Of a DNA stretch of 60,493 nucleotides, positions 29,389 to 60,455 are shown piece by piece. A program made the translations under genes and the position numbers. The DNA comes from Candidatus Fraserbacteria bacterium (GTDB lineage: Bacteria > Bipolaricaulota > Bipolaricaulia > RBG-16-55-9). The notes beneath the pieces were generated by a model, which was not told the DNA's origin, searched no databases, and worked only from the letters and a program-made list of their open reading frames with translations. Within the stretch, counting starts at the first letter, position 1. Each line of letters starts with the position of its first letter. The stretch covers positions 1 to 60,493 of the forward strand of contig JBBIPG010000004.1 in NCBI GenBank assembly GCA_037442925.1, read 5' to 3'.

Positions 29389-29750
29389 GGGGGTGACTGG
29401 ATTCGACGGGGATGTCGAAGTGAAGGCAGCAGGTGGAGTTGGCCGTCCACTCCCAAATCAGGCGGCACAGCACGATAAGTGCCAACGAACTAGCTTACGC
29501 TGCTCCTTCCCTGAACTAAGAGAGGGAGCCGTTCGCCTGAGTCTCTGCCCGTAGGACACAGGACGAACGTCGAACATGCGGGCTGGCTCCTCAGAGAGTC
29601 TCCGTCTAAGGAGCGAGAACACAGGAGGCTTGGACACGAAGATCCGGTCTTGCGGGAGCTTTGTGTCTGAAAACAAGACGCAAGACTAAGCCTGTAGAAG
29701 CCAAGCAGAGGCATCTTCGGACCCGGGTTCAAGTCCCGGCACCTCCACCA
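29389..29750 (+). ncRNA. ssrA: tmRNA (one-piece)
   Basis: 5' GGGGGTGACTGGATTCGACGGG; 3' T-arm CCGGGTTCAAGTCCCGG then CACCTCCACCA; resume context ATAAGT-GCC. Confidence 0.96.
29481..29519 (+). other. tmRNA tag reading frame: ANELAYAAPSLN*
   Basis: GCC AAC GAA CTA GCT TAC GCT GCT CCT TCC CTG AAC TAA, directly after the ATAAGT upstream motif. Confidence 0.8.
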
Positions 29751-32943: not shown

Positions 32944-34212
32944 TCACATCAGTTCACTCCGGCTCTGATTATAGCTCCAATCGAGGTCAATCCCGCAGGC
33001 GCGAATCAACGCGGCACTCTCTTCTTCGGTGATACGGGCTCGGCTGTCCGCTCGCCGGATCGCAGGCGGAACCCCTTTGCCCTGGGCGATCTCTGCCAGG
33101 ATTTGCGCACGTAACCGTTCGGGTTCATGTTTCTCAAAGACGATGCGCGGGCACTCGACTTTCAGCACGGCTTTCACCCTCGGATCGTACACGTAGAAGA
33201 AACAGACGTGGTAAGCGCGGGACGGGTGCATTAATTCAAACGATCCCAGGCGCTCAAAGATATCGAAGCTCTCTACGCTCTGTCCTCGACGCTGCGGAAG
33301 CGAGTAGCCCTCCTGCACGAACCAGTTGGTGTACCCAATGGCATCTTTGGGCGTGTTGCTGAGCACAGCCCGCATGAACTGTGCATCGCTGGACCAGTTG
33401 TGGGATTCTGGCTCCAGCGTGAATTCCAAGAACCATGAGGTGCTCGGGTTTTTGTTGAAGCCCACTATAGCAAACCCACGTGCGGCAAACTCCTCGACAA
33501 CTCGCACGGGCTGAGCCAAGATCTCAATAGCGGGCTTCCACTCCGTCCAGCTTGCTCTTATGCCGTTCTCTTCCGGCCAGATCTGATCTTCTCCGGAAAG
33601 ATAGTAGTAGAGCCCTATGGGGTATAGATTCCCATCCAGAATCCAGAGGCCCTGCTGCGGCTTGAGTTCTTGCCGCATACGTCGAGCGTGATACGACTCA
33701 GCTGCCATTCGGGCAAGTCCCCCCACGACGCGCTCAACCTCGTGCTCCAGATATGTCCGCGAGATATGAATTCTCCAGAAGTGAACGTACTCATCTTGAG
33801 ATGTCTCAGATTTTGCGCCACCTAGATCTGTCCTCTGAGAGTGAGAGACCAGTGAGAGCGAGCGAAAGGCCTCCAATGGGAGGTCTTTGTGGCGAGTATC
33901 TGGATCACTGGACAACACGGCTTGATAGGCGCAGAGCATGGTGCCGTTCTCCAATTGCTGGAGGCGTGTGCTGCCACCATCAATGGCATACACGGGCTCA
34001 TACTCTGGGAACGAATAAGCGGCCAACTGCAATACGCTCTCGGAGCGATACTCCAGAGGAGTGAGTGCTTGTATTGCTCCCTTGAGGTGCAGCTTCTCGA
34101 ACAACTGGCGGGCTTCCTCGCGGTGGTTGGGGCTCAGGCGTTGAACTTGTTCGCCGAAGGCTTTCAGTTGATTTCGTAACGTCTGCTTGGCTTCGTTGGA
34201 GAGCATCCTCAT
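32944..34212 (-). CDS. nurA: NurA-family nuclease
   Basis: YAIDGGS, ESYHA, ILDGNLYP and C-terminal G.G.P.AI..AD..ARI; sits between rad50 and herA. Confidence 0.78.
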   Translation of the reverse strand: MRMLSNEAKQTLRNQLKAFGEQVQRLSPNHREEARQLFEKLHLKGAIQALTPLEYRSESVLQLAAYSFPEYEPVYAIDGGSTRLQQLENGTMLCAYQAVLSSDPDTRHKDLPLEAFRSLSLVSHSQRTDLGGAKSETSQDEYVHFWRIHISRTYLEHEVERVVGGLARMAAESYHARRMRQELKPQQGLWILDGNLYPIGLYYYLSGEDQIWPEENGIRASWTEWKPAIEILAQPVRVVEEFAARGFAIVGFNKNPSTSWFLEFTLEPESHNWSSDAQFMRAVLSNTPKDAIGYTNWFVQEGYSLPQRRGQSVESFDIFERLGSFELMHPSRAYHVCFFYVYDPRVKAVLKVECPRIVFEKHEPERLRAQILAEIAQGKGVPPAIRRADSRARITEEESAALIRACGIDLDWSYNQSRSELM

Positions 34213-36620
34213 CTCACCCGATAGACGCGGCTGGTGTTGTCTGCGGTCTTCTCCGTGCGATACTCGTGATCGGCTCCTTCGACAAGTCCCAATTCGTGCG
34301 AAACCACAATCACTTGACCAATACGCCCACCCAGTTCTTCCAGTAGAAACTGCAAGCGATTCACCCGCTCGCGATCCAAATAGATCGTGGGCTCATCGAG
34401 GATGAGCGGCATGCGACTGCTGGCTTGTGCCAGCACCTGATGGATCGCTGAACGAAGTGCGATATTGATGAGCGCTCGCTCACCACCGGAGAGCAGATCA
34501 GGCCGAATGGTACTTCCGTTCTTGAGTTCTACCGTGATATCGTAGTCCTCGGACACGCGTACGCCACGGTAACTCGCGCCCGAATCCATGAGTCGAAAGA
34601 ACTGATTGAAATAAAGCTCAAGGGCCTTGATGTTGCGCGTGCGTAGTTCCCTTTTGAGTGCACCATAGAATTCTGTGAGCTGCTCGAGTTCCGCTTGAAG
34701 GCGCTCGATTGCGGTCAGTTCCGCATCGTTCTGTGCGAGTTCTTCTCTGTACTTCTTGAGCTGCTCCAGTTGAGTGTCAATCTTCCCACGTTCTTGGTGT
34801 AGAGCGCCGATCTCTTGCTCCCGTTGCTTCTTTTGATCCTTGAGCTGCTGTAGCACGACCAATACCTGCTGTGATCTCTTCTCCAGTTCAGCGATATCGG
34901 GCAGACTCCTCTTGATATCTGCAACCTTGGTGCGGATACGGGTCAGCTCATCTCGAAGGGATTCCATGCTCTCCATGAGCGTCTGGCGCTCCTCTTTTCG
35001 CTGGAACCCCTGGTCTTTGATCTGCAGGAGGCGTAGCGCCTGCTCCTTCAGTTGTTCGAGTTGAGTCCGTCGGTTTGCCAGCGCCCTGAACTCTTCGTTC
35101 AACTGCTGGACGGCTTTGTCGGCTTCCCTCTTTAGGGAGCCGATCTCTGCCTCTAGAGTCTGGAGTTTCTCTCTCTCTCGTTGGACTTCTGAGTTCAACT
35201 TCACAAGCGACTTCTCTTTCTGTTTCAATGTGGCGCTATACGTGTTTTCGTGTATGGGTTGCTTGCAGGTCGGGCACTTGCCTTGTTGAATCAGCGCGTC
35301 CATCTCTTCGAGTTCTCGTTGGAGGTTCCGCTGCTGGGTCTCTGCCTGCGCCATGGATGTAAGCAAAGACTCTTTCTCTTTGGAGAGGTTGTCAAGCTGT
35401 TCGGCCATGCGCTTTTGGCGTTCTTGCGTCTGAGAATGGAGGGCTTCTTGCCGTTCGTTCGTTCGCGTCAACTCTTGAGGCAGAATTTCAAGTTCTTCCC
35501 AGTTCGAGGCCTTGCTGAGGGATTTTATCACGGGTTCTTTGGACAATCCCAGCTGCGTGAGCGCTTTGCCGAACTGCGTTTCCAGCTGTTTATATCTCTG
35601 CTTTAGGCTCTCCCGTTCCTGGTCACATTGCTGGACTCTCTTCTCCGCATCGCGAAGTTGCTTCTCCTTCTGCGTGAGTTCTTCGGTACGTTCCTGGATT
35701 TCACGGGTCTGTTCCTCGATGCGCCGGAGTCTCTCCTTAAGACCATGCTGGAGCTCTTCCGCTTGGGAGATCTTCTGCTCAAGTTTTTGGAGTTCAGCTT
35801 GCTGGGCGCGGAGTCTCTCTTCGAGATCTCCTCGGCTTCTCTCGAGATTCTGTCTTTCTCGTTTTTCAATCTCACGCTTCAAGTCTGAAGAGAGTGTGCG
35901 GAGCACATCCAGCCGACGATTGAGAGCTCGTTGCGCCCCTTCTTGTGCTCGCTTGGCGTAGCGATCCAGCTTTTCAAGTCGCAGCAGTCGATCGATCATG
36001 CGACGACGTTCTTCCTCGCTCGTGCGGATCAGCCGATCGATCTCTCCCTGGCGTACGTAGACGCAGTTGGTAAAGTCATCGCGGTTCATGCCGAACAGTT
36101 CTTCAATAGCTTGAGCAACATTCTCGACTCCGAGCCACTCCTCGCCGTCATCGCGACTCAGGCGGCAGTCCTCTTTCTCACTGATGACATGGTCTCCGCG
36201 CCGTCGTAGAGCCATCTGGGCAAGATAACGCTGTGTTCCATGGGAGAATGTGAGCCGCACAGAACCGACATCGGCTCCGATGCGAAGGATATCTGGGAGA
36301 GAGCGATCCATTGCCGGACCGGCTTTGCTCCCATAGAGAGCGAAGAAGACGCTCTCCAGCAGTGAAGATTTCCCGCTGCCGTTGGGGCCCGCGATTACGG
36401 TGACTCCATCTTCAAAGGCGATCTCGGCGTGTTCATAGCACCAGAGGTCTTCAATCTGGAGGGATTCCAACTGCATGGCAGGGGTATGAGATTCCTTCGG
36501 GAGAGTTGGATGCCTCTTGCTTGGCGGTGGACTGGTGGGAAGATCTCTTTCAACGGGCTCACGTTCGCCCTCGGTGCGGGTGAGCAAATCTAGCAGACTC
36601 TGTTCCTTCTTCTTGGGCAT
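34209..36620 (-). CDS. rad50: Rad50/SbcC SMC-like ATPase
   Basis: GPNGSGKSS, Q-loop YVRQGEI, coiled coils, Zn-hook CPTC, LSGGE, LDEPT, VSH. Alternative start at ATG 36476. Confidence 0.93.
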   Translation of the reverse strand: MPKKKEQSLLDLLTRTEGEREPVERDLPTSPPPSKRHPTLPKESHTPAMQLESLQIEDLWCYEHAEIAFEDGVTVIAGPNGSGKSSLLESVFFALYGSKAGPAMDRSLPDILRIGADVGSVRLTFSHGTQRYLAQMALRRRGDHVISEKEDCRLSRDDGEEWLGVENVAQAIEELFGMNRDDFTNCVYVRQGEIDRLIRTSEEERRRMIDRLLRLEKLDRYAKRAQEGAQRALNRRLDVLRTLSSDLKREIEKRERQNLERSRGDLEERLRAQQAELQKLEQKISQAEELQHGLKERLRRIEEQTREIQERTEELTQKEKQLRDAEKRVQQCDQERESLKQRYKQLETQFGKALTQLGLSKEPVIKSLSKASNWEELEILPQELTRTNERQEALHSQTQERQKRMAEQLDNLSKEKESLLTSMAQAETQQRNLQRELEEMDALIQQGKCPTCKQPIHENTYSATLKQKEKSLVKLNSEVQREREKLQTLEAEIGSLKREADKAVQQLNEEFRALANRRTQLEQLKEQALRLLQIKDQGFQRKEERQTLMESMESLRDELTRIRTKVADIKRSLPDIAELEKRSQQVLVVLQQLKDQKKQREQEIGALHQERGKIDTQLEQLKKYREELAQNDAELTAIERLQAELEQLTEFYGALKRELRTRNIKALELYFNQFFRLMDSGASYRGVRVSEDYDITVELKNGSTIRPDLLSGGERALINIALRSAIHQVLAQASSRMPLILDEPTIYLDRERVNRLQFLLEELGGRIGQVIVVSHELGLVEGADHEYRTEKTADNTSRVYRVR

Positions 36621-36682
36621 AGTCTCTCGTGAGGAGTATAGTTGAACGAGTCAGGGGAGAGCAATGAACTTTGGGAAAATTA

Positions 36683-37732
36683 TTACGGTCTCTTCACTAA
36701 CGTTTCGAGCAACTTCGTGACCTCTTCGTCCACTCTCGAATCAGCGACCTTCGGATGGCGAATGATGCCATCGATATCACGAGTCGCCTCCGAGACGTTC
36801 AGTTGTGCCAGCCGTTCGGAGATGAGCGCATCGAGATTGCCGAACTCGAGTTGCACATCCACCCCCTGCTCCCCTTCACTCGACTCTTCTCGTTGGTCTC
36901 GCACACGCACAGCCAAAGCTCCTCGCGAGCGCGCATGTTCCTCAATCTCTTGAACGCGGTGCCCATCACGCGACAGATACACACAGACGACTGCACCCTT
37001 GAGCTGATCTCGATGGGCATCGATGCTCTTGATGGGATCTTCCTCTTCACTGATGTAGAGAAATCTGCGAGTAGGGAGTTCGCGGCGATCCAAGCGTCCC
37101 CTCTTAAGATCGATCAGACTCACTCCTCGCGGCTCGCGCTCATCCAGGCTCCAGCGCTCGGTGCTGCCGGGATACGTGATGAGCACATTCTTATCGTGCC
37201 AGATCTGATGCTCATGATAATCCCCCAAGAGCACATACGGAGCGCCGCAGGCAACTAGATCATCGTAGCGCAGCTCGCCATCGGCGCGGATGCGGTCTAT
37301 CAGCTGATGGCAGACCAGTACGTCTCCCTTTACGTGGAGCAGTTTTACATCGCGACGGCCCGCGTAATCCATGCCATAAAACTTCACACCATGGAGTTCG
37401 TACGGCTCTGAATTGAGATGTACTGCCAAGCCAAGCTGAGCGAAGAGATCGAGCCACTGCACTCCGCGCCGCTGCTCGTGGTTGCCCACGACCCCCAAAA
37501 ACGGGATGCCCACCCCTTTCAACTGGAAGAGCGTCCGAAGCGTCTCGTGAAGGTCTTCTGCTGTGGGATACCGATCATCGAAGAGATCACCAGAATGAAC
37601 GACGGCATCCACTTTTTCTCCGATAGCGATCTCAATGACTTGATGGAAGGCGTGAGAAAAATCAGCTCGCCGTTCTTCAAGACCATACTGGCGGCTGCCG
37701 ATGTGTGTATCCGCCGTGTGGAGGACTCTCAT
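36683..37732 (-). CDS. mre11: Mre11/SbcD nuclease, euryarchaeal-like
   Basis: ADTH, HSGDLFD, VGNHE, LLGDYH, YPGSTER. Confidence 0.92.
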   Translation of the reverse strand: MRVLHTADTHIGSRQYGLEERRADFSHAFHQVIEIAIGEKVDAVVHSGDLFDDRYPTAEDLHETLRTLFQLKGVGIPFLGVVGNHEQRRGVQWLDLFAQLGLAVHLNSEPYELHGVKFYGMDYAGRRDVKLLHVKGDVLVCHQLIDRIRADGELRYDDLVACGAPYVLLGDYHEHQIWHDKNVLITYPGSTERWSLDEREPRGVSLIDLKRGRLDRRELPTRRFLYISEEEDPIKSIDAHRDQLKGAVVCVYLSRDGHRVQEIEEHARSRGALAVRVRDQREESSEGEQGVDVQLEFGNLDALISERLAQLNVSEATRDIDGIIRHPKVADSRVDEEVTKLLETLVKRP

Positions 37733-37744
37733 GCCAGCCAGAGC

Positions 37745-49839: not shown

Positions 49840-51000
49840 GTGAGCCATCGGGACGTAGCTGTCATTGGCGTTGGATACACGAACTTCAATAGCGTTACGC
49901 CCGAAGTCAACTGGAAAGAACTCATGTTCGAAGCGGCACAGAAAGCCTATCAAGACGCAGGGATCGATCCACGCCGGGAGGTCGATAGCTTCATCACCTG
50001 TGCCGAGGACTTCTGGGAGGGCTTTTCGATCTTCGACGAGTTCACGCCGGATCAATTGGGCGCTGCGCTTCGCCCCATGCACACTGTCCCTGGTGATGGA
50101 CTGCAGGGCTTGGCCAACGCCTACATGCAGATCAAGACCGGACTCTTTGACATCGTCGTTGTCGAGGCCCACAGCAAGATCTCGGAGCTTCTCACCTATG
50201 AAGATGTCGTTCAGCTCTCGTTCGACCCCATCTATGAAGCTCCGCTATCGAATGGAGTCCACCCCTACTATGTAGCCGGCCTGGAGATGAGAGCGTATCT
50301 GGAAGCCACGGGAACGACGGAGGAAGAGTGCGCGGCGGTTGTCGTTCAGAACAAGCGAAATGCTTTCTTGAATCCCTTGGCAGAGTTCGAGTGCGAGCTG
50401 GATGTGGAGAGCGTGATGAGATCCGACTATGCCTTTGATCCCTTGAAGGCCGTGGAGATCGCTCCGCGAGCGGATGGCGCGATTGTGTTCGTATTGGCAG
50501 GCGGAGAGATCGCTCGTGAACTGACAGATGTGCCCGTCTATCTGGAAGGGATCGGCTGGTGTTCTGAATCACCCTGGATCGCCTCGCGTAGCTCGGATGC
50601 CAGCTATGCGAAGCGGGCGGCTCAGATGGCATATCAACAAGCGGGTCTTGAGAATACTCAACTCATAGACATCGCTGAAGTGGACGATCAATTTGCTTTC
50701 AAAGCACTTCAGCATCTGGAGGCTCTGGGGCTCGCGCGCCCTGGCGAGGCAGGCTTCCTCATGGTCGAGGGAGCATTTGGCCCCCAAGGGCAGTTGGCTG
50801 TAAACCCCAGCGGGGGCTCTTTGGGCTGTGGGCATCTGATGGAAGCTTCCGGCCTGGCGAGAGCTCTCGAGATCGTGCTTCAACTGCGAGGGGAAGCGGG
50901 GCAAAGGCAAGTGGAAGATGCCATGATCGGCGTCGCTCAATCTTGGCGAGGTCTGCCTCATGGGACCGGAGCGGTCGCGGTGTTCTCACGGAGGGAATGA
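49840..51000 (+). CDS. Thiolase-fold protein 1 (SCP2/archaeal type) lacking the nucleophilic Cys
   Basis: VAVIGVG, VQNKRNAFLNP, ADGAIVFVL, EVDDQF, VNPSGGSLGCGH; TVPGDGLQG in place of VExACASG. Confidence 0.85.
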   Translation: MSHRDVAVIGVGYTNFNSVTPEVNWKELMFEAAQKAYQDAGIDPRREVDSFITCAEDFWEGFSIFDEFTPDQLGAALRPMHTVPGDGLQGLANAYMQIKTGLFDIVVVEAHSKISELLTYEDVVQLSFDPIYEAPLSNGVHPYYVAGLEMRAYLEATGTTEEECAAVVVQNKRNAFLNPLAEFECELDVESVMRSDYAFDPLKAVEIAPRADGAIVFVLAGGEIARELTDVPVYLEGIGWCSESPWIASRSSDASYAKRAAQMAYQQAGLENTQLIDIAEVDDQFAFKALQHLEALGLARPGEAGFLMVEGAFGPQGQLAVNPSGGSLGCGHLMEASGLARALEIVLQLRGEAGQRQVEDAMIGVAQSWRGLPHGTGAVAVFSRRE

Positions 51001-52187
51001 CCATGAATCTCGGGAAAATTCATAAAGATGTTGCGGTAGTCGGCGCGGGGATGACTCTCTTCTCTCGGCGTCTGCAAGAGACGGGCAAGGAGATGAGCTG
51101 GGAAGCCGCTCAGATGGCCCTCGATCAGGCGGGCCTCTCACTAGATGACATAGATGCCGTGATCATGGGCTCCGCGCCGGATGCCTTCGATGGGGTTCAC
51201 AAGAAGGGTGACTGGCTGCTCGATGGCGCTGGCGGAACCAACAGACCTTACATGCGGGTCTACACCGGTGGCGGCACGGCCGTCTTCGCCCCCATCGCGG
51301 GCTGGTGGCACGTGGCCTCCGGGTTGTTCGAGAAAGTTCTTGTGCTTTGTGAAGAGAAGATGAGCAGCTGCATGCCGCACGCGCAGAGCGCCTTCGCCCA
51401 CATCTGGGACCCCATACTGGATCGCCCGCTCAAGCCCAATCTCGTCTGGATCTTCTCCATGGAGATGCAGCGGTACATGCATACATATGACGTGCGCTAT
51501 GAGGACATCGCGCTGGTTGCTGTCAAGAACAAGCGCAACGCGGTAGGCCATCCCTGTGCTCAATTGGCCGATCCGGACATCACCCTAGATGACGTGCTCA
51601 CTTCAGAACCCATGGCACTGCCGGTGCGACGGCTCGATATCAGCCCGCCGTCGGATGGGGCGGCGGCTGTGGTGCTCGTGAGTGAAGATGTGGCCTATGA
51701 ACTGACGAATGAGCCCGTCTGGATTGATGGTGTGGGCTGGTGTATTGATTCTACTATGTGGACGAATCGCGATCTGGCCTTTCCCAAATTCGTGGCCCAT
51801 GCGGCGCGAATGGCCTACGAGATGGCCGGAATCAAAAACCCGCGTAAAGAGATCGACATTGCGGAACCGTACGATCCCTTCGACTACAAAGAACTTCAGC
51901 ACCTCGAAGCGCTGGGTCTCGCTGATCCCGGTCAAGCAGCCATCATGACCCGAGAGGGCAAGACGCAGCGCGATGGCGAACTCCCCGTCTGTCCCAGTGG
52001 AGGACTTCTGGGGGTGGGAAACCCCATCGCGGCCACGCTCGGGATCAAAGTAGGAGAACTCTTCTGGCAGCTCTCTGGGCAAGCGGGTGCCCGTCAAGTG
52101 CCTGGTGATCCAGCCGTGGGCGTGGCACAGGCGTGGGGCGACTTGATGCAGTTTAGCAGTGTGATCGTGATGAGGAGGCGCTCATGA
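50997..52187 (+). CDS. Thiolase-fold protein 2 lacking the nucleophilic Cys
   Basis: VAVVGAG, VKNKRNAVGHP, SDGAAAVVL, EPYDPF, PSGGLLGVGNP; RVYTGGGTA in place of VExACASG; ATGA overlap with gene 1. Confidence 0.85.
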   Translation: MTMNLGKIHKDVAVVGAGMTLFSRRLQETGKEMSWEAAQMALDQAGLSLDDIDAVIMGSAPDAFDGVHKKGDWLLDGAGGTNRPYMRVYTGGGTAVFAPIAGWWHVASGLFEKVLVLCEEKMSSCMPHAQSAFAHIWDPILDRPLKPNLVWIFSMEMQRYMHTYDVRYEDIALVAVKNKRNAVGHPCAQLADPDITLDDVLTSEPMALPVRRLDISPPSDGAAAVVLVSEDVAYELTNEPVWIDGVGWCIDSTMWTNRDLAFPKFVAHAARMAYEMAGIKNPRKEIDIAEPYDPFDYKELQHLEALGLADPGQAAIMTREGKTQRDGELPVCPSGGLLGVGNPIAATLGIKVGELFWQLSGQAGARQVPGDPAVGVAQAWGDLMQFSSVIVMRRRS

Positions 52188-52726
52188 ACCAAGCGATCAA
52201 ACCCAAGGGGAGGTCCCTTTCAACTGAACAGATGAAGCAAGTTCCGCACGTGATCGCACGGCCTCAGGCCAAGTACGCCTGGGCGGCGGGCGTGGCAATG
52301 AGTCACTTTTTAGAAGGGCTCAAACAAGGCAAGATCCTCGGCCGCCGATGTATTGCGTGCGAGAGGGTGCTTGTACCTCCCAGAATGTTCTGTGAGCGAT
52401 GCTATCGCACGACGGATGGGTGGGTAGAGCTACCCGGCACCGGCGTGATCGAGACGTTTTCGATCTCGTACATCGACACGAACGCGAATCGCATTAAGGA
52501 CCCCATCTTTGTCGGGGTGTTGGCCTTCGATGGTGCGCCCCCGCATTGTGGGATCATGCACTACTTCGGAGAAGTCTCTCCAGAGGAGATCCATATCGGG
52601 ATGCCGGTCGAGCCCCTCTGGAAGCCGGAAAGCGAGCGTGTGGGAGCCATCACAGACATCAAGTACTTCCGCCCTCGTGAAGGAATTCCGTCTAAGAGAA
52701 TCAGCCAGCGCCGTAAGCGAGGTTGA
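52184..52726 (+). CDS. DUF35-type Zn-ribbon/OB-fold protein 1
   Basis: CIAC...PPRMFCERC; G.IETFS; IGMPVEPLWK..R.GAITDIKYFRP. Confidence 0.9.
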   Translation: MNQAIKPKGRSLSTEQMKQVPHVIARPQAKYAWAAGVAMSHFLEGLKQGKILGRRCIACERVLVPPRMFCERCYRTTDGWVELPGTGVIETFSISYIDTNANRIKDPIFVGVLAFDGAPPHCGIMHYFGEVSPEEIHIGMPVEPLWKPESERVGAITDIKYFRPREGIPSKRISQRRKRG

Positions 52727-52732
52727 GAGGCG

Positions 52733-53218
52733 ATGACATTCAGCGAGAAGTTTCAGAGGACGACGGAGATGAAACACTGGCTGGGCGACATGGAGGTCGA
52801 TCACTTCCACTACACGGCCGGCGTCGCAGGCGAAAGATTTTTCATCGCGCTGCGGGATCGAGGAGTGATCCTCGGAGCCCGATGCGCGCCTTGTGGGATC
52901 ACGTACGTGCCACCCCGTATCTACTGTGAGCATTGTTTCGCAGAACTGAAAGAGGACGCCTACCAGGAGGTCGGCCCGCGCGGCTGGGTGCGTGCCTTCA
53001 CCATCGCTCGCCTCGGCAAAGACGGGCACCCACTCACGGAGCCTGAGATATTGGCCGTGATTGACTTCGGGTCAGATTCAACGGGCTTCTTGCACAAGCT
53101 AAGTGGAGTTGCACCCGAAGAAGTGAGGGTAGGCTTGGAAGTGGAAGCTCTACTCAAGCCCAAGGCCCAGCGCGAGGGGCGCATCACGGACATTGAGCAT
53201 TTCCGGCCGGTGGCGTAG
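52733..53218 (+). CDS. DUF35-type Zn-ribbon/OB-fold protein 2
   Basis: CAPC...PPRIYCEHC; R.GRITDIEHFRP. Confidence 0.9.
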   Translation: MTFSEKFQRTTEMKHWLGDMEVDHFHYTAGVAGERFFIALRDRGVILGARCAPCGITYVPPRIYCEHCFAELKEDAYQEVGPRGWVRAFTIARLGKDGHPLTEPEILAVIDFGSDSTGFLHKLSGVAPEEVRVGLEVEALLKPKAQREGRITDIEHFRPVA

Positions 53219-53323
53219 AGTTTGCTTTCATGGCATACAATATCGGACGACGACTGTCAGGAGCACTCGCGAACGGGGTAAAATAGGGGAAGTTCGGGTA
53301 GGCGACCGAAAGGAGATGGCATC

Positions 53324-55981
53324 GTGTTACGAATCAAGCCCGGTGCGATCAGCATGCTCTGGATTGGCGTGCTCTCTGCGTTCGTCATGCTGGGAATGGC
53401 CCAGTCCGTCCAACTGACTTCCGATACTGATCCGGACCAGAATTCCACAAAAATTCAGAGCATGCTGCGCGGATTGATCGGTAGCGTCTCAGGAGCGACC
53501 TCTGAGGATCTTCCGCTCATCCCTCGATTCTTCAGTTTCTCCCAATCCTCGGAGCTAGAGCAGCTGCTGGCTCTTAAAGCGAGAGGGGATCGAGTGCAAG
53601 TCGTCATCGAAGTGGCGCCACAAGCCGAGAGCCTCCAGATTGCAGAGCGGGTGAGAGATTTCGGCGGGGAAGTCGAGTTGACTCAGGAGAATTGGGTGCA
53701 AGCGGTCGTCCCCGTTGATGAATTGGAGAGCCTCGCGGCGATGCCGCAAGTTCGCTTCGTTCGCTTGCCGGTCCGTCCGTTCTTGATGCAGGGCTCCATT
53801 CGTAGCGAAGGTCTGACCATGGTCGGCTCTCCGGGTTGGAATGAGAGTGGTTTCGCGGGTCAAGGCGTCACAGTGGCCCTCGTGGACCCCGGAGGGTTCC
53901 GGGGGTATGAGAGTTTGCTGGGCCGGGAGCTACCCGCCCGCGAGAAGGTGACACCGCGCTCCTTCCGTTCAGATAAGCAGATGTACGAGCCCGATGCCTC
54001 GCGCGGAGCTCAAGTTCATGGGACGGCAACGGCAGAGGTCGTCCACGACGTTGCCCCGGAAGCAGAGCTCTATCTGGTGATGTTCTCAACTGACGTCGAG
54101 TTTCGCAGCGCCATCAACTGGCTGGTCGAACAGAAAGTGGATGTGATCAACACGTCGCTTGGATTCCCGTCGGGTTGTTTCCGCGAGGGCGGAGGGATCT
54201 TTGAGCCCCAGTTCGTGAAAGCTCACGAGAATGGGATCGCCTGGGCTACGGCAGCCGGCAATGAGGGAGACATTCACTGGGAAGGAACCTGGCGCGATTC
54301 CGATGGTGACAATCTATACAATTATACGGACACCGACGAGGGGAACACCCTCGACGTTCAGCTCATCGAGTACCAGTATCCCGACGGCCGACGGGTGGCT
54401 ACGTCAATCATTGATGTTCTCTTCAGCTGGGATGCCTCTTGTACGGATGCTTCGGATGACTACGAAGTGGTCGTTCTGCGAGAGCAAGAGGGCCAACTCA
54501 AGCCGCTTGCCCCTTGGGATGGCTCGGTAGGGCAACTGAGTGATTGGATCTGGAGGCCCGGCGTTCCCATCAAAGAGACCCTTGCCAGCGAGGATTTTGA
54601 TGTAAGTCGAGTAGGGCAGATCGAACGGTATCATCTAGCCATTCGTAAGAAGCGAGCCGATGCCGCCGACTCTCGCTTTGAGATGCTCATCATGTGTCCC
54701 TGCAATCGAATTGAGTACCTTGTAGCTCAGGGCAGCGTAGGCATTACGGAGCCTTCCATCTCGGCCAATGTGATCACAGTGGGAGCCGTGCATCATTCCT
54801 CACGCTGTTCGCGCAGCCTCTGTCCCGATGGGAGGTTGCTCTTCTACTCCAGCCAGGGGCTGACAAAGGATGGTCGCATCAAGCCGGATCTCGCGGCGCC
54901 CAGTCACGTCTCCACTAGTAGCTATGGTCGCTGGACAGGCGAGGGTGGCGGGCGAAATCCCGGCTTCACAGGCACATCAGCGGCTTCTCCACATGTCGCC
55001 GGCGCGGCAGCTCTTGTAAAACAAGCCTTCCCAGAATACACGCCCGATCAGATCAAAGAGTTTCTCGAAGATCGGGCAGAGGACATGGCTGAGCCCGGCA
55101 AGGACAATCGCTACGGGGCAGGCATTCTGCTCTTGGGTCAGCCTCCGGTTCAGCCTGCTGCCCCAACAATTACTGGCATCGAGCCTGCCGGTGGCCTGCA
55201 AGGGAGTGAGATTCAAGCGACGATCAGCGGCACAAATCTTGCAGGTGCCACGTCCGTTACATTCAGTGGGACAGGAGTGACGGCTGCTCTTCGAGAGGGC
55301 GGCACGGCTACAACGTTGCCCATCACCATCACGGTTGCTTCTGACGCATCTCCTGGGTCTCGAACCTTCACCGTCACGACTCCAGCTGGGACAGCATCCA
55401 GCGGAGAAATCACATTCACCGTGCTCGAAGCCCCTCAGATTCAAGTGGAGCCCGAAGCCCTGAGCTTCAGTGTACCAGCGTCCAATGGCGACCCTCCCGC
55501 ACAGACGTTGCGCATTACGAACTCCGGTGGTGGGGCTCTCAACTGGCAGGCATCTACAGACGTTCCTTGGCTGCGCTTGAGTGCCACGGAGGGAACTGCT
55601 CCATCTGAGCTTCAAGTGTCGGTGGTGCTTGCGGAAGAAGATCTAACCGCAGGCAGCTATGAAGGTCGGATCACTATCACGGCTTCGGATGCACTGAACA
55701 GTCCCCTGGTTGTGCCGGTGACGCTCACGCTTAAGGCCCCGCCGGGAGAGCTGATCGCACTGGTCTTCAAGCAGCTGGAGTTCGTCAAACCCGAAGATTG
55801 GGAGCGAACTCTAAGAGAAGGCTGTGTCGTCTATACCAACATCAGTGGTGATTCGAGCATCATGCGCGTGACGCTGCCGGATGACTCCATCCGTGAGTTC
55901 GAGATCCCGGCAGGCCATGAAGTGATCGTCTGCGGGGACGTGGTGCATATTGACACTCGACCTCAAGCCGCCTCCGGTTAG
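53324..55981 (+). CDS. Secreted S8 subtilase with propeptide, IPT/TIG-like and BACON-like domains
   Basis: Signal peptide; triad VALVDPG, HGTATA, GTSAASPHVAG; oxyanion AAGNE; PTITGIEP..G..G and L.W...DVPWL domains; AGGAG RBS. Confidence 0.92.
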   Translation: MLRIKPGAISMLWIGVLSAFVMLGMAQSVQLTSDTDPDQNSTKIQSMLRGLIGSVSGATSEDLPLIPRFFSFSQSSELEQLLALKARGDRVQVVIEVAPQAESLQIAERVRDFGGEVELTQENWVQAVVPVDELESLAAMPQVRFVRLPVRPFLMQGSIRSEGLTMVGSPGWNESGFAGQGVTVALVDPGGFRGYESLLGRELPAREKVTPRSFRSDKQMYEPDASRGAQVHGTATAEVVHDVAPEAELYLVMFSTDVEFRSAINWLVEQKVDVINTSLGFPSGCFREGGGIFEPQFVKAHENGIAWATAAGNEGDIHWEGTWRDSDGDNLYNYTDTDEGNTLDVQLIEYQYPDGRRVATSIIDVLFSWDASCTDASDDYEVVVLREQEGQLKPLAPWDGSVGQLSDWIWRPGVPIKETLASEDFDVSRVGQIERYHLAIRKKRADAADSRFEMLIMCPCNRIEYLVAQGSVGITEPSISANVITVGAVHHSSRCSRSLCPDGRLLFYSSQGLTKDGRIKPDLAAPSHVSTSSYGRWTGEGGGRNPGFTGTSAASPHVAGAAALVKQAFPEYTPDQIKEFLEDRAEDMAEPGKDNRYGAGILLLGQPPVQPAAPTITGIEPAGGLQGSEIQATISGTNLAGATSVTFSGTGVTAALREGGTATTLPITITVASDASPGSRTFTVTTPAGTASSGEITFTVLEAPQIQVEPEALSFSVPASNGDPPAQTLRITNSGGGALNWQASTDVPWLRLSATEGTAPSELQVSVVLAEEDLTAGSYEGRITITASDALNSPLVVPVTLTLKAPPGELIALVFKQLEFVKPEDWERTLREGCVVYTNISGDSSIMRVTLPDDSIREFEIPAGHEVIVCGDVVHIDTRPQAASG

Positions 55982-55987
55982 GAGGGC

Positions 55988-56386
55988 ATGGTGAGTCGAA
56001 ACCTCCTTGGGCTGCTCTTTATCGGGTTATTGTTGTTTGCCTTCACGGGATGCACCGCGAAGCAAGAAGGAGGAGAGCAAGCCGTATCGCCCAAGTGGGA
56101 AGACTATCAAGGCAAAGTCCAGCAGACGCTCTTCGAGTTGGTCACAGCGAAAGATCCCGGCAAGTATGCTGAGCAGCGCCAACTGGAGTATGCCACGATG
56201 GTGCGCGTGGTCATTGAGCTTGCACCAGATGCAGCATTGCCGGAAGGCTTTCTGGTCCTGGAGGAGAGTCGTTATGAGAATGAAATTCAGGCGTGGGTTC
56301 CTCTGGATAAGCTCCTGGAGCTTTCCCAGCAGCCTCAGATCCAGTATATCCGTGCACCGAGGAAGCCAAAGCCGTACTCATACTAG
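55988..56386 (+). CDS. Lipoprotein resembling the propeptide (I9-like) of the upstream subtilase
   Basis: Lipobox FTG-C at residue 22; VRVVIELAPDA and ENEIQAWVPLDKL.EL..QPQIQYIR.P.KP parallel the S8 prodomain; GGAGG RBS. Confidence 0.75.
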   Translation: MVSRNLLGLLFIGLLLFAFTGCTAKQEGGEQAVSPKWEDYQGKVQQTLFELVTAKDPGKYAEQRQLEYATMVRVVIELAPDAALPEGFLVLEESRYENEIQAWVPLDKLLELSQQPQIQYIRAPRKPKPYSY

Positions 56387-59031: not shown

Positions 59032-59078
59032 GCACGATGCCAGTTTCGGCAAAGGCGAAGGCCATCCAGAAAGGAGAC

Positions 59079-60239
59079 ATGCTCGTGTTTTCTCACCGTG
59101 ATCTAGAGAAGCTGCTTACAACTGAATCAAACCCCCTCTTGAGTGTGTATCTGAACACGGACCCTTCGCAAGACCCTAAGGGTTCGTATCGTATCTGGTT
59201 GAAGGATGCGCTGAAGACCCTGGAGGGAAGGGTCGAAGGCTCGGAGCAGAAGCGCTTCCGCGAGGCTGCAGATCACGTCCATGCTCATATGAAAGAGTTT
59301 CGCGCTCAAGGGAAATCTTGGGTGGCTTTTGTGGGGAATGGGCTTGTTGAGCAATACGATTTACGGGTCCCCGTGGAGAACGAGGTCCAGTGGGGGCGAC
59401 CAGAACTTACCCAGCTGGCGTGGCTTTTAGAGGAGTATCGCCCTTACGGGATTGTTTTGGTCGACTCCGAGAAACTGCGTTTTTTCATCGTGGTGATGAA
59501 CGAGATTTATGAGATGAACGACCGGACGCTGGAACTGGACACAAGCGGCTGGCGAAGGAAGGAGATATCACCCCCTTCGCAGCCTCGGGGAACTCCCGTG
59601 CGCGGATCGGTTCGCGGTGGCAACGAGCGAGACGCTTTCGTCGAGCGCGTGAGAGTCCAGACCGAAAAGTTCTGGAGGGAAGCGTCCGGTGTGCTACGTC
59701 GTCTCAACGAGCTTCATCAAGCGGAGAAGCTCGTGCTGGGAGGGCCCAAAGCCATTCGGGAGCGTTTTATGCAGACGCTGGGAGCAGAGAGCAGTAGAGT
59801 CATCGGGCAGATCTCAGTACCCTTAGAGGCTTCGCCTTCGGCTGTGCTAGCGGAGAGCGTGTCTGTGATCCAGACTCATGAGCGCACGCAAGAAATACAG
59901 GTTGTCGAAGAGCTTCTGCGACGGGCATCGACCAGCGATCGGGCGGGTGTGGGGCTACTGCCAACGCTCAAAGCTTTGCAGGAGAGTCGTGTGGAGCGAG
60001 TCATCGTCAATAGGCGTCTGGAAGCGACCCTCAACGAGTGTGTCACTTGTGGGTATGCTTTTGACAGATCGGAAGAGAAATGTCCGAACTGCTCGTCGAC
60101 GCAAGTGAAGCGCACCTCGCTGCGAGCCCTCTTGCCGGTGCTCGTCCGCCGCCATGGGGCTAGGCTGGAGATTATCCGGCGTCCGGCGGCAGAGAAGCTC
60201 GCTCCTCACGGGGGTATCGGGGCATTGTGGCGATATTAG
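59079..60239 (+). CDS. Bacterial aeRF1/pelota-superfamily (baeRF-like) protein with C-terminal Zn ribbon
   Basis: LSVYLNTDP, IVLVDSEKLR, LVLGGP, GL..TL.ALQE.RVERVIV, CVTC..CPNC, GGIGALWRY; AGGAG RBS before ATG 59079. Confidence 0.8.
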   Translation: MLVFSHRDLEKLLTTESNPLLSVYLNTDPSQDPKGSYRIWLKDALKTLEGRVEGSEQKRFREAADHVHAHMKEFRAQGKSWVAFVGNGLVEQYDLRVPVENEVQWGRPELTQLAWLLEEYRPYGIVLVDSEKLRFFIVVMNEIYEMNDRTLELDTSGWRRKEISPPSQPRGTPVRGSVRGGNERDAFVERVRVQTEKFWREASGVLRRLNELHQAEKLVLGGPKAIRERFMQTLGAESSRVIGQISVPLEASPSAVLAESVSVIQTHERTQEIQVVEELLRRASTSDRAGVGLLPTLKALQESRVERVIVNRRLEATLNECVTCGYAFDRSEEKCPNCSSTQVKRTSLRALLPVLVRRHGARLEIIRRPAAEKLAPHGGIGALWRY

Positions 60240-60245
60240 ACAGAA

Positions 60246-60317
60246 GGGCGAATAGCTCAGCGGCAGAGCGTCCGCCTTACACGCGGAAGGTCCCAGGTTC
60301 AAATCCTGGTTCGCCCA
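60246..60317 (+). tRNA. tRNA-Val(TAC), CCA not encoded
   Basis: Cloverleaf GGGCGAA/TTCGCCC, anticodon loop CT-TAC-AC, T-loop TTCAAAT; discriminator A followed by CCC. Confidence 0.96.
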
Positions 60318-60334
60318 CCCCACGCACCTGGAGC

Positions 60335-60378: not shown

Positions 60379-60455
60379 GGGGGTGTAGTGTAGCGGCCTA
60401 ACACGCTGCCCTGTCAAGGCAGAGACCGCGGGTTCAAATCCCGTCATCCCCGCCA
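60379..60455 (+). tRNA. tRNA-Asp(GTC), CCA encoded
   Basis: GGGGGTG/CATCCCC acceptor stem, CT-GTC-AA loop, TTCAAAT T-loop, G + CCA end. Confidence 0.96.

What the first reader, a model, noticed from the sequence alone, without database searches (positions are those of the whole stretch)
53324..56386. Subtilase followed by a membrane-anchored free copy of its own propeptide
Seen in sequence: the S8 prodomain (about 53450-53780; KIQSML, RVQVVIEVAPQA, ENWVQAVVPVDELESLAAMPQVRFVRLPVRP) aligns by eye with the whole mature lipoprotein (KVQQTL, MVRVVIELAPDA, ENEIQAWVPLDKLLELSQQPQIQYIRAPRKP). The lipoprotein has a lipobox and starts 6 nt downstream. Established: subtilisin propeptides (I9) act as both folding chaperones and tight inhibitors. 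Inference: a protease plus a cell-surface lipid-anchored inhibitor or chaperone, i.e. a protease-immunity pair derived by domain duplication.
Basis: partly seen in the sequence, partly recalled or inferred. Interest (0 to 1): 0.75.

Follow-up and report, generated by a model that had tools for sequence, protein, structure and literature searches.

The report
Subtilase with membrane-anchored free prodomain homologue
A secreted subtilisin-type protease gene is followed by a small lipoprotein gene homologous to the protease's own prodomain, and this pairing recurs in bacteria and archaea, pointing to an undescribed prokaryotic family of surface-tethered protease inhibitors or partners.

Summary
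ORF 53324-55981 is an active-looking, Csp-like S8 subtilase with a signal peptide, prodomain, catalytic domain with a beta-rich insert, TIG and BACON domains. ORF 55988-56386 is a lipoprotein that is homologous over its whole length to the prodomain (BLASTP E=8e-9; profile-profile 99% probability, E=7e-19 to 2e-24). Its model matches solved subtilase propeptides, but it lacks helix alpha1.

It is not a recent copy of its own neighbour's propeptide. It belongs to an old, unannotated family of free, mostly membrane-anchored proteins (421 clusters at 50% identity). Members are closer to one another across phyla than to any prodomain.

In 13 of 14 informative loci (Bipolaricaulota/Fraserbacteria, Chloroflexi, haloarchaea) the free copy lies directly beside an S8 gene that keeps its own prodomain.

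The free protein ends 5-8 residues after strand beta4, within a residue or two of the predicted autoprocessing site. It therefore resembles an already-cleaved propeptide.

Best reading (inferred, untested): a surface-tethered, product-like inhibitor or latency partner of the cognate protease. No binding or inhibition evidence exists. It is a new variant of a known kind: eukaryotic I9-type free inhibitors, and Tannerella potempins.

The parts
53310..53315 (+). Shine-Dalgarno-like AAGGAG, 8 nt before the GTG start of the S8 gene
   Evidence: Read directly from the sequence.
53324..55981 (+). S8 subtilase gene (885 aa), Csp-like
   Evidence: ORF. Pfam Peptidase_S8 E=1.3e-32. D188, H232, S552 and N313 invariant in 61 homologues. 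AF2 model pLDDT 86.9. Best structural match CspB 4i0w_B, E=3e-16.
53324..53401 (+). Predicted Sec signal peptide (residues 1-26, …LGMA|QS)
   Evidence: Basic n-region and hydrophobic core read from the translation. 'GxAQ' is conserved in the family consensus. Cleavage position is inferred.
53402..53791 (+). Prodomain (residues ~27-156): helix 46-56, low-confidence loop 57-83, then beta1 90-97, alpha1 103-112, beta2 116-121, beta3 124-130, alpha2 131-138, beta4 143-147, tail 148-156
   Evidence: AF2 secondary structure. Weak CspB_prodomain hit at residues 89-149. Lipoprotein-family HMM hit E=3e-17. Predicted scissile bond Q156|G157, from the phmmer alignment G163 to subtilisin G7 and the conserved 'QG'; inferred.
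53792..55153 (+). Catalytic domain (residues ~157-610), interrupted by a beta-rich insert at residues ~318-465 (nt 54275-54718)
   Evidence: Two Peptidase_S8 stretches with a gap. All-beta segment 318-463 in the model. CspB and CspC, which carry a jellyroll insert, are among the top four structural matches (PMC3567191).
55163..55954 (+). C-terminal beta domains: TIG-like (residues 614-700), BACON_2 (706-802), and an unannotated ~70-aa domain with two conserved Cys (810-877)
   Evidence: Pfam TIG E=5.5e-4, BACON_2 E=4.5e-6. Strands in the model. Consensus.
55980..55986 (+). Shine-Dalgarno AGGAGGG overlapping the S8 stop codon (translational coupling)
   Evidence: Sequence. Orthologous junctions also carry GGAG motifs.
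55988..56386 (+). Free prodomain-like lipoprotein gene (132 aa from ATG 55988; probably 131 aa from GTG 55991)
   Evidence: ORF. No Pfam or NCBIfam family. 8 close clusters and 421 clusters at 50% identity. dN/dS 0.12-0.22 against orthologues.
55988..56053 (+). Lipoprotein signal peptide and lipobox (…LLLFAFTG-C22; Cys codon 56051-56053)
   Evidence: G21 and C22 invariant in 8 homologues. 64 of 116 family members have a lipobox after a hydrophobic N-terminus.
56123..56353 (+). Folded propeptide-like domain: helices 46-53 and 57-63, beta1 71-78, beta2 89-93, beta3 99-105, alpha 106-113, beta4 118-122 (no alpha1)
   Evidence: AF2 model, core pLDDT 87-92. Foldseek top hits are subtilase propeptides: Tk-propeptide TMt 0.70-0.74 and rmsd ~2 A, pro-subtilisin E, CspB prodomain, PC1/3 prodomain.
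56354..56383 (+). C-terminal tail APRKPKPYSY, ending at the position aligned with the prodomain's predicted cleavage site
   Evidence: hhalign aligns lipoprotein 129-131 with S8 154-156. Free copies in 12 loci end 5-8 residues after the beta4 'R-x-P'.

Best explanation
The two genes form a conserved module. The first is a secreted, Csp-like S8 subtilase that folds with its own N-terminal prodomain. The second is a membrane-anchored paralogue of that prodomain.

Proposed mechanism:
1. After export and autoprocessing, the lipoprotein binds the protease at the prodomain-binding surface: its beta-sheet packs on the catalytic domain and its C-terminal tail lies in the substrate cleft.
2. Its chain stops at about P2-P1', so it behaves like an already-cleaved propeptide. 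It acts as a product-like competitive inhibitor with nothing to cleave on the primed side.
3. Because it is lipid-anchored, the effect is confined to the cell surface. It either quenches protease activity next to the producer's own membrane (self-protection) or holds a latent pool of enzyme there.

Shown here: homology, fold, lipobox, gene coupling, conserved adjacency across phyla, purifying selection, and chain-end position.
Inferred: binding, inhibition, and the biological purpose.
For: 1. Full-length homology to the prodomain and a propeptide fold.
2. Adjacency to an S8 gene in 13 of 14 informative loci. These include different gene orders and distant taxa: downstream in Bipolaricaulota/Fraserbacteria; upstream, separated by 1 nt or overlapping, in Chloroflexi L018 and haloarchaeal-type L039, L040 and L041. 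Every partner S8 keeps its own prodomain, so the free copy is not a replacement foldase.
3. Membrane anchoring is achieved in two unrelated ways across the family: a lipobox in 64 of 116 members, and a signal peptide plus C-terminal TM helix in 11 of 116. This argues that surface tethering is selected.
4. The chain ends 5-8 residues after beta4, aligned to within 1-2 residues of the predicted scissile bond. In CspB, prodomain residues P6-P1 fill the cleft, a prodomain supplied in trans blocks the active site, and removing P3-P1 re-opens it (PMC3567191).
5. In two lineages the tails resemble the cognate prodomain tails: L041 VRLQT vs YRLQT, and L018 LRAVPLR vs YLAKPLK.
6. dN/dS is 0.12-0.22, and dN is lower than for the S8's own signal peptide plus prodomain in the same genome pairs.
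7. Precedents exist: free propeptide-like subtilase inhibitors in eukaryotes, one encoded beside subtilase genes (PMC6993865), and lipoprotein inhibitors co-transcribed with their proteases in Tannerella (PMC9890683).
Against: - There is no direct evidence of binding or inhibition.
- Tail co-variation is weak overall: 4 of 120 and 332 of 5040 permutations reach the observed score. It is absent in the window's own lineage.
- Foldseek E-values for the small domain are modest (0.03-0.5), although the hits are consistent.
- Many related S8 genes have no free copy nearby (L013, L021, L027, L028/L031), so the partner is not needed by the protease family in general.
- One free copy (Nitrosopumilus, L014) has no S8 in the 8 kb seen.
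- The helix-capping acidic residues used by classical subtilisin propeptides (PMC6993865) are replaced here by R-x-P, so the binding geometry is assumed, not shown.
- The window protein has two extra residues (SY) beyond the end of most orthologues.
Confidence: 0.55

Rival explanations
1. Surface docking subunit. The lipoprotein's main role is to tether an otherwise anchorless secreted protease to the cell membrane by occupying the prodomain-binding surface, so that digestion products are released near the cell. Any inhibition is incidental or partial.
For: The S8 has a signal peptide but no recognisable anchor. The partner is anchored by a lipobox or a TM helix across the family. Some tails are only 5 residues long (AKPKF, VKPKL) and might not reach S1.
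Against: In known propeptide complexes the same binding mode places the tail in the substrate cleft and blocks it (PMC3567191, PMC6993865). A tether that silences the enzyme gains nothing unless release is regulated. No evidence of an active complex.
Confidence: 0.2
2. Trans-acting foldase. The lipoprotein is a second, membrane-located chaperone that helps the catalytic domain fold as it emerges from the Sec translocon, as propeptides can do in trans.
For: A CspB prodomain supplied in trans restores folding (PMC3567191). The genes are translationally coupled. The protein sits at the membrane, where export occurs.
Against: Every partner S8 examined retains a complete prodomain of its own, so a second foldase is redundant. 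Many close S8 relatives do without a partner. The free copy has lost alpha1.
Confidence: 0.1
3. Immunity protein of an antagonistic protease. The S8 is a weapon against neighbouring cells, and the lipoprotein protects the producer's surface, in the manner of toxin-immunity pairs.
For: Adjacent and coupled genes. A membrane-anchored partner. Haloarchaeal secreted subtilases take part in antagonism between strains (PMC12893001).
Against: The locus sits among housekeeping genes in stable synteny (thiolase/DUF35, meaB, thiI). It shows no sign of a mobile or polymorphic toxin locus. Nothing shows that the protease harms cells. This is a special case of the inhibitor reading rather than a separate mechanism.
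Confidence: 0.1
4. Functionless remnant of a duplication, or a chance ORF.
For: No curated family and no experimental data.
Against: 421 clusters at 50% identity. Conserved across bacteria and archaea with conserved adjacency. dN/dS 0.12-0.22. A confident folded core.
Confidence: 0.02

Closest known systems
Stand-alone subtilisin-propeptide-like inhibitors (MEROPS I9 type): Pleurotus POIA1, yeast PBI2, Arabidopsis SPI-1, Toxoplasma MIC5, Plasmodium SUB1-ProM (as listed in PMC6993865)
   Same: A small free protein with a subtilase-propeptide fold. SUB1-ProM is likewise encoded beside subtilase genes. The expected mode is tight, selective inhibition through the propeptide-binding surface and the C-terminal tail.
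   Different: - All characterised examples are eukaryotic and soluble; this family is prokaryotic (bacteria and archaea) and mostly membrane-anchored.
- Helix alpha1 is missing.
- There is no sequence match to Pfam Inhibitor_I9.
- Sequence homology to the neighbouring prodomain is still detectable, whereas the known ones are described as lacking significant sequence similarity.
Tannerella forsythia potempins, especially PotC, inhibitor of the S8 mirolase (PMC9890683)
   Same: 98-132-residue membrane-anchored lipoproteins, encoded immediately next to and co-transcribed with a secreted peptidase, which they inhibit specifically.
   Different: Potempins are OB-fold or eight-stranded beta-barrels that insert a loop into the cleft, and they are unrelated to the protease's prodomain. 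The protein here is a prodomain homologue expected to insert its free C-terminus.
Clostridial Csp subtilases (CspB/CspC) and their retained prodomain (PMC3567191; PDB 4i0w, 6mw4)
   Same: The protease is structurally closest to CspB and CspC and shares the beta-rich insert inside the catalytic domain. The prodomain type is the same (weak PF18425 hits; 4i0w_A is among the fold hits of the lipoprotein). A prodomain supplied in trans inhibits through its P3-P1 residues.
   Different: Csp proteases are spore germination enzymes of Firmicutes and are not described with a separate prodomain-like gene. The NCBIfam CspBA model scores 27.9 bits against a cut-off of 1250.
Streptococcus pyogenes SpeB and its adjacent propeptide-like inhibitor Spi (recalled from memory; not retrieved)
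   Same: A bacterial protease gene next to a small gene homologous to the protease's own propeptide, which inhibits it.
   Different: That pair involves a cysteine protease (C10) and, as I recall, a cytoplasmic inhibitor. It is a different fold family and is not membrane-anchored. I could not verify this in the library.

Membership tests
Peptidase family S8 (subtilases) | Asp-His-Ser catalytic triad in subtilase order, plus the oxyanion-hole Asn | tested here: met
   D188, H232, S552 and N313 invariant in 61 aligned homologues. Pfam PF00082 E=1.3e-32, 113.7 bits against a cut-off of 21.8.
Csp-type subtilases | Beta-rich (jellyroll) domain inserted within the catalytic domain | tested here: met
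   All-beta segment at residues ~318-463, between N313 and S552. CspB 4i0w_B (E=3e-16) and CspC 6mw4 are among the top four Foldseek matches.
Csp-type subtilases | Sequence membership in the CspBA germination protease family, and a prodomain matching PF18425 | tested here: not met
   NCBIfam NF040809 scores 27.9 bits against a cut-off of 1250. PF18425 scores 14.2 bits against a cut-off of 25, E=0.045.
Csp-type subtilases | Prodomain stays bound to the wild-type enzyme after autoprocessing | not testable with these tools
   Needs biochemistry or a structure.
Subtilase propeptide-like inhibitors (MEROPS I9 / Pfam PF05922) | [quoted passage not shown] | tested here: met
   The lipoprotein model has beta1-beta2-beta3-alpha-beta4 plus two N-terminal helices. 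Foldseek top hits are subtilase propeptides, TMt 0.70-0.74, rmsd ~2 A, probability ~1. Caveats: alpha1 is absent, and E-values are only 0.03-0.5.
Subtilase propeptide-like inhibitors (MEROPS I9 / Pfam PF05922) | Sequence match to the Inhibitor_I9 profile | tested here: not met
   No PF05922 hit for the lipoprotein, the S8 prodomain or 50 family members, even at E up to 0.1-1.
Subtilase propeptide-like inhibitors (MEROPS I9 / Pfam PF05922) | C-terminal tail that reaches the active-site cleft | tested here: inconclusive
   The tail length (5-8 residues after beta4) and the alignment to the predicted P-side of the prodomain fit. No complex model or structure.
Subtilase propeptide-like inhibitors (MEROPS I9 / Pfam PF05922) | Tight inhibition of a subtilase | not testable with these tools
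   Needs an enzyme assay.
Bacterial lipoproteins | Signal peptide ending in a lipobox with an invariant Cys | tested here: met
   …LLLFAFTG-C22, with G21 and C22 invariant in 8 homologues. 64 of 116 family members have the pattern. Lipidation itself is not testable here.
Potempins | OB-fold or eight-stranded beta-barrel inhibitor scaffold | tested here: not met
   The model is an alpha/beta propeptide-like fold. Potempin folds are as described in PMC9890683. The resemblance is functional only.

The most novel reading that the evidence does not exclude
This would be a widespread, previously unrecognised prokaryotic system found in both bacteria and archaea. A membrane-anchored mimic of the cleaved propeptide captures a Csp-like subtilase after secretion and holds it on the cell surface as a latent enzyme, to be released or activated on a cue. 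Prodomain-retaining Csp proteases are held latent in spores until germination in a similar way. That would make it a regulated surface-protease switch, not a simple safety inhibitor. The multi-repeat members (P0138 with four domains) would then act as multivalent docks.
Probability: 0.2. Interest if true: 0.75.

Novelty: new variant of a known kind. Interest (0 to 1): 0.6.

Why it matters
Free propeptide-like inhibitors of subtilases have been characterised only in eukaryotes (PMC6993865). The best-studied bacterial lipoprotein inhibitors encoded beside their proteases, the potempins, have unrelated folds (PMC9890683).

This locus shows a large prokaryotic family that combines both ideas. It has 421 clusters at 50% identity, spans Bipolaricaulota, Chloroflexi, haloarchaea and Thaumarchaeota, and matches no Pfam or NCBIfam model.

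If the inhibitor reading holds, three things follow:
- It adds a new inhibitor family for S8 proteases.
- It gives a natural example of a product-mimicking protease inhibitor.
- It gives a function to hundreds of hypothetical proteins.

The haloarchaeal pairs offer a genetically tractable test system. The family could also supply specific inhibitors for industrially relevant subtilases.

Tried and rejected
- The accepted degenerate pattern (VRVVIEL…QA.VP) gave only 8 hits in genomes, 4 of them chance. In metagenomes it gave 17 hits: 7 loci carried an S8 with a fused prodomain, one of which (L023) was the pair already seen in L016; the other 10 had no family match. So the co-occurrence survey rests on 14 informative loci, not a large sample.
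- The profile search in the word-indexed database returned only 18 proteins.
- DUF7537 first looked like a Pfam home for the haloarchaeal branch. The match covers only the signal-peptide region and is below the cut-off (22.5 against 31.7 bits), so I rejected it.
- I recalled a halolysin inhibitor or immunity gene in Haloferax. The library search did not confirm it, so I do not rely on it.
- SpeB/Spi could not be retrieved.
- Co-variation between tail and cognate prodomain was tested and is only suggestive.
- A profile search of PDB sequences found no relative.
- No sigma-70-like promoter, and no terminator between the genes, was found. The scan is uninformative for this phylum.
Full report
**1. 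What is there**

The window carries two tightly spaced genes on the + strand. ORF 53324-55981 encodes 885 aa and ORF 55988-56386 encodes 132 aa. The S8 stop codon overlaps a Shine-Dalgarno AGGAGGG at 55980-55986. That spacing, together with the orthologous gene calls, makes GTG 55991 the more likely start of the small gene. meaB starts 6 nt after the small gene, and no terminator-like site separates the three genes. The window has only this one S8 and one free copy.

**2. The protease**

- Pfam Peptidase_S8 matches at E=1.3e-32 in two stretches. BACON_2 and TIG match weakly, and CspB_prodomain matches at E=0.045 over residues 89-149.
- D188, H232, S552 and the oxyanion-hole N313 are invariant in 61 homologues, so the enzyme should be active.
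- The AlphaFold model (pLDDT 86.9) shows, in order: a signal peptide; a helix (46-56); a disordered loop (57-83); a classic propeptide unit of beta1 90-97, alpha1 103-112, beta2 116-121, beta3 124-130, alpha2 131-138 and beta4 143-147; a low-confidence linker (151-157); the catalytic domain, interrupted by an all-beta insert (~318-463); and three C-terminal beta domains.
- CspB (4i0w_B, E=3e-16) and the pseudoprotease CspC (6mw4) are among the four best structural matches. These are the subtilases known for a jellyroll insert and a retained prodomain (PMC3567191).
- It is Csp-like in architecture but is not a member of the CspBA germination family: NCBIfam scores 27.9 bits against a cut-off of 1250.

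**3. The small protein**

- It matches no Pfam or NCBIfam family.
- All eight close homologues keep a lipobox with invariant Gly-Cys.
- The model has a confident core (pLDDT 87-92) with helices 46-53 and 57-63, then beta1, beta2, beta3, alpha, beta4.
- Its best matches among solved structures are almost all subtilase propeptides: Tk-subtilisin propeptide (TMt 0.70-0.74, rmsd about 2 A), pro-subtilisin E, CspB prodomain, PC1/3 prodomain and the BPN' prosegment. E-values are modest (0.03-0.5), as expected for about 60 aligned residues.

**4. The claimed similarity is real and full-length**

- BLASTP aligns S8 residues 91-152 with lipoprotein residues 72-127 at 38% identity, E=8e-9.
- Profile-profile comparison aligns lipoprotein 3-131 with S8 5-156 at 99.1-99.6% probability, E=7e-19 to 2e-24.
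- The differences are an ~18-residue loop and helix alpha1. Both are present only in the prodomain.

**5. It is an old family, not a local duplicate**

- An exhaustive profile search found 421 cluster representatives at E<=1e-3. The top 150 are nearly all free proteins of 84-300 aa.
- Of the 116 members examined, 64 have a lipobox and 11 have a signal peptide plus a C-terminal TM helix. A few carry 2-4 tandem copies of the domain.
- Each free copy scores higher against free copies from other phyla and domains (35-106 bits) than against any prodomain, its own neighbour's included (0-41 bits).
- In the close relatives, own-genome pairs are no more similar than cross-genome pairs.
- The gene is under purifying selection (dN/dS 0.12-0.22). 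Its dN is lower than that of the S8's own signal peptide plus prodomain in the same genome pairs.

**6. The pairing is conserved**

- In Fraserbacteria/Bipolaricaulota relatives the order thiolase, thiolase, DUF35, DUF35, S8, free copy, meaB recurs. It also recurs where the upstream genes differ (L011, L016).
- In a Chloroflexi genome the free copy lies directly upstream of a related S8 (L018).
- In three haloarchaeal-type loci it lies directly upstream, separated by 1 nt or overlapping by 4 nt, of S8 genes of 900, 921 and 1531 aa.
- All of these partner proteases keep their own prodomain.
- Overall, 13 of 14 informative loci show adjacency. The exception is a Nitrosopumilus copy with a C-terminal TM helix and no S8 within the 8 kb available.
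- The reverse does not hold: several related S8 genes have no free copy nearby.

**7. Mechanistic inference**

- In CspB, the prodomain's P6-P1 residues fill the catalytic cleft. A prodomain given in trans both folds the enzyme and blocks its active site, and removing P3-P1 re-opens the site (PMC3567191).
- The phmmer alignment to subtilisin (query G163 to subtilisin G7) puts the S8's mature N-terminus at about G157 and P1 at Q156, a conserved 'QG' in the family consensus.
- The free copies end 5-8 residues after the beta4 'R-x-P', and hhalign aligns the window protein's residues 129-131 with S8 154-156.
- So the free protein stops at about P2-P1', like a propeptide that has already been cleaved. 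It could occupy the non-primed subsites without offering a scissile bond.
- Tails resemble the cognate prodomain tail clearly in two lineages (L041, L018). The overall permutation test is only suggestive (4 of 120).
- Surface anchoring by two independent means suggests the action is meant to occur at the producer's membrane.
- I therefore favour a surface-tethered, product-like inhibitor or latency partner (confidence 0.55). A docking role (0.2), a trans foldase (0.1) and a toxin-immunity reading (0.1) are the alternatives. None of the binding steps is shown.

**8. Comparison with the known**

- Free propeptide-like subtilase inhibitors are established in fungi, plants and apicomplexans, and one of them is syntenic with subtilase genes (PMC6993865).
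- Lipoprotein inhibitors co-transcribed with secreted proteases are established in Tannerella, but they have OB-fold or beta-barrel scaffolds (PMC9890683).
- I found no report of a prokaryotic free subtilase-propeptide homologue in the searchable library, no curated family and no solved relative by sequence.
- I class it as a new variant of a known kind.

Noticed in passing
window 29389-29750 (+): tmRNA gene with tag peptide ANELAYAAPSLN.
   Followed up: no
window 60246-60319 and 60379-60455 (+): tRNA-Val(TAC) and tRNA-Asp(GTC) at the end of the window.
   Followed up: no
window 49840-53218 (+): Two thiolase-like genes followed by two DUF35-type genes (zf-ChsH2/OB_ChsH2_C in the orthologues), directly upstream of the protease. 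This order is conserved in most Fraserbacteria/Bipolaricaulota relatives. Probably unrelated to the protease pair.
   Followed up: partly
window 59037-60239 (+): The orthologues of this 400-aa ORF match baeRF (bacterial/archaeal eRF1-like) families 10 and 5. It is conserved next to thiI in this lineage.
   Followed up: no
window 34001-36000: Strong negative AT skew (-0.29) in the composition profile. It coincides with an 813-aa minus-strand ORF (34212-36650) next to an ORF beginning MRVLHTADTHIG (36686-37744), which looks like an Mre11/SbcD-type nuclease. The pair is probably SbcCD/Rad50-Mre11-like, identified from sequence motifs only.
   Followed up: no
window 55751-55954 (+), S8 residues 810-877: The C-terminal ~70-aa beta domain of the protease has two conserved Cys and no Pfam match. 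It is conserved in the closest homologues.
   Followed up: no
P0138 (555 aa), P0187 (317 aa), P0209 (272 aa): Family members with four or two tandem copies of the free propeptide-like domain behind one lipobox or signal peptide. They might bind several protease molecules.
   Followed up: no
P0148, P0152, P0153, P0170, P0190, P0202, P0224: Free lipoprotein members that still carry the alpha1 segment (…EW..DL.WA..ALGG.VE…), like the fused prodomain. They look like intermediates between the prodomain and the short free form.
   Followed up: no
L014 5394-6038 (-), Nitrosopumilus sp. MAG: A free copy with a C-terminal TM helix and no S8 gene in the 8 kb available. A Thaumarchaeota S8 with the fused prodomain exists elsewhere (L021).
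   Followed up: partly
L001 6388-12198 (Ca. Fraserbacteria RBG_16_55_9): In this relative, meaB after the free copy is replaced by a molybdopterin oxidoreductase gene and several toxin-antitoxin genes (MazE, RHH/PIN, PemK). This suggests an insertion at that point.
   Followed up: no
L039 8446-13041 (Halobellus rubicundus): The 1531-aa partner protein has no Pfam hit on record but matches the S8 family profile at E=4e-79 and has its own prodomain. It is an unusually large, unannotated subtilase.
   Followed up: partly
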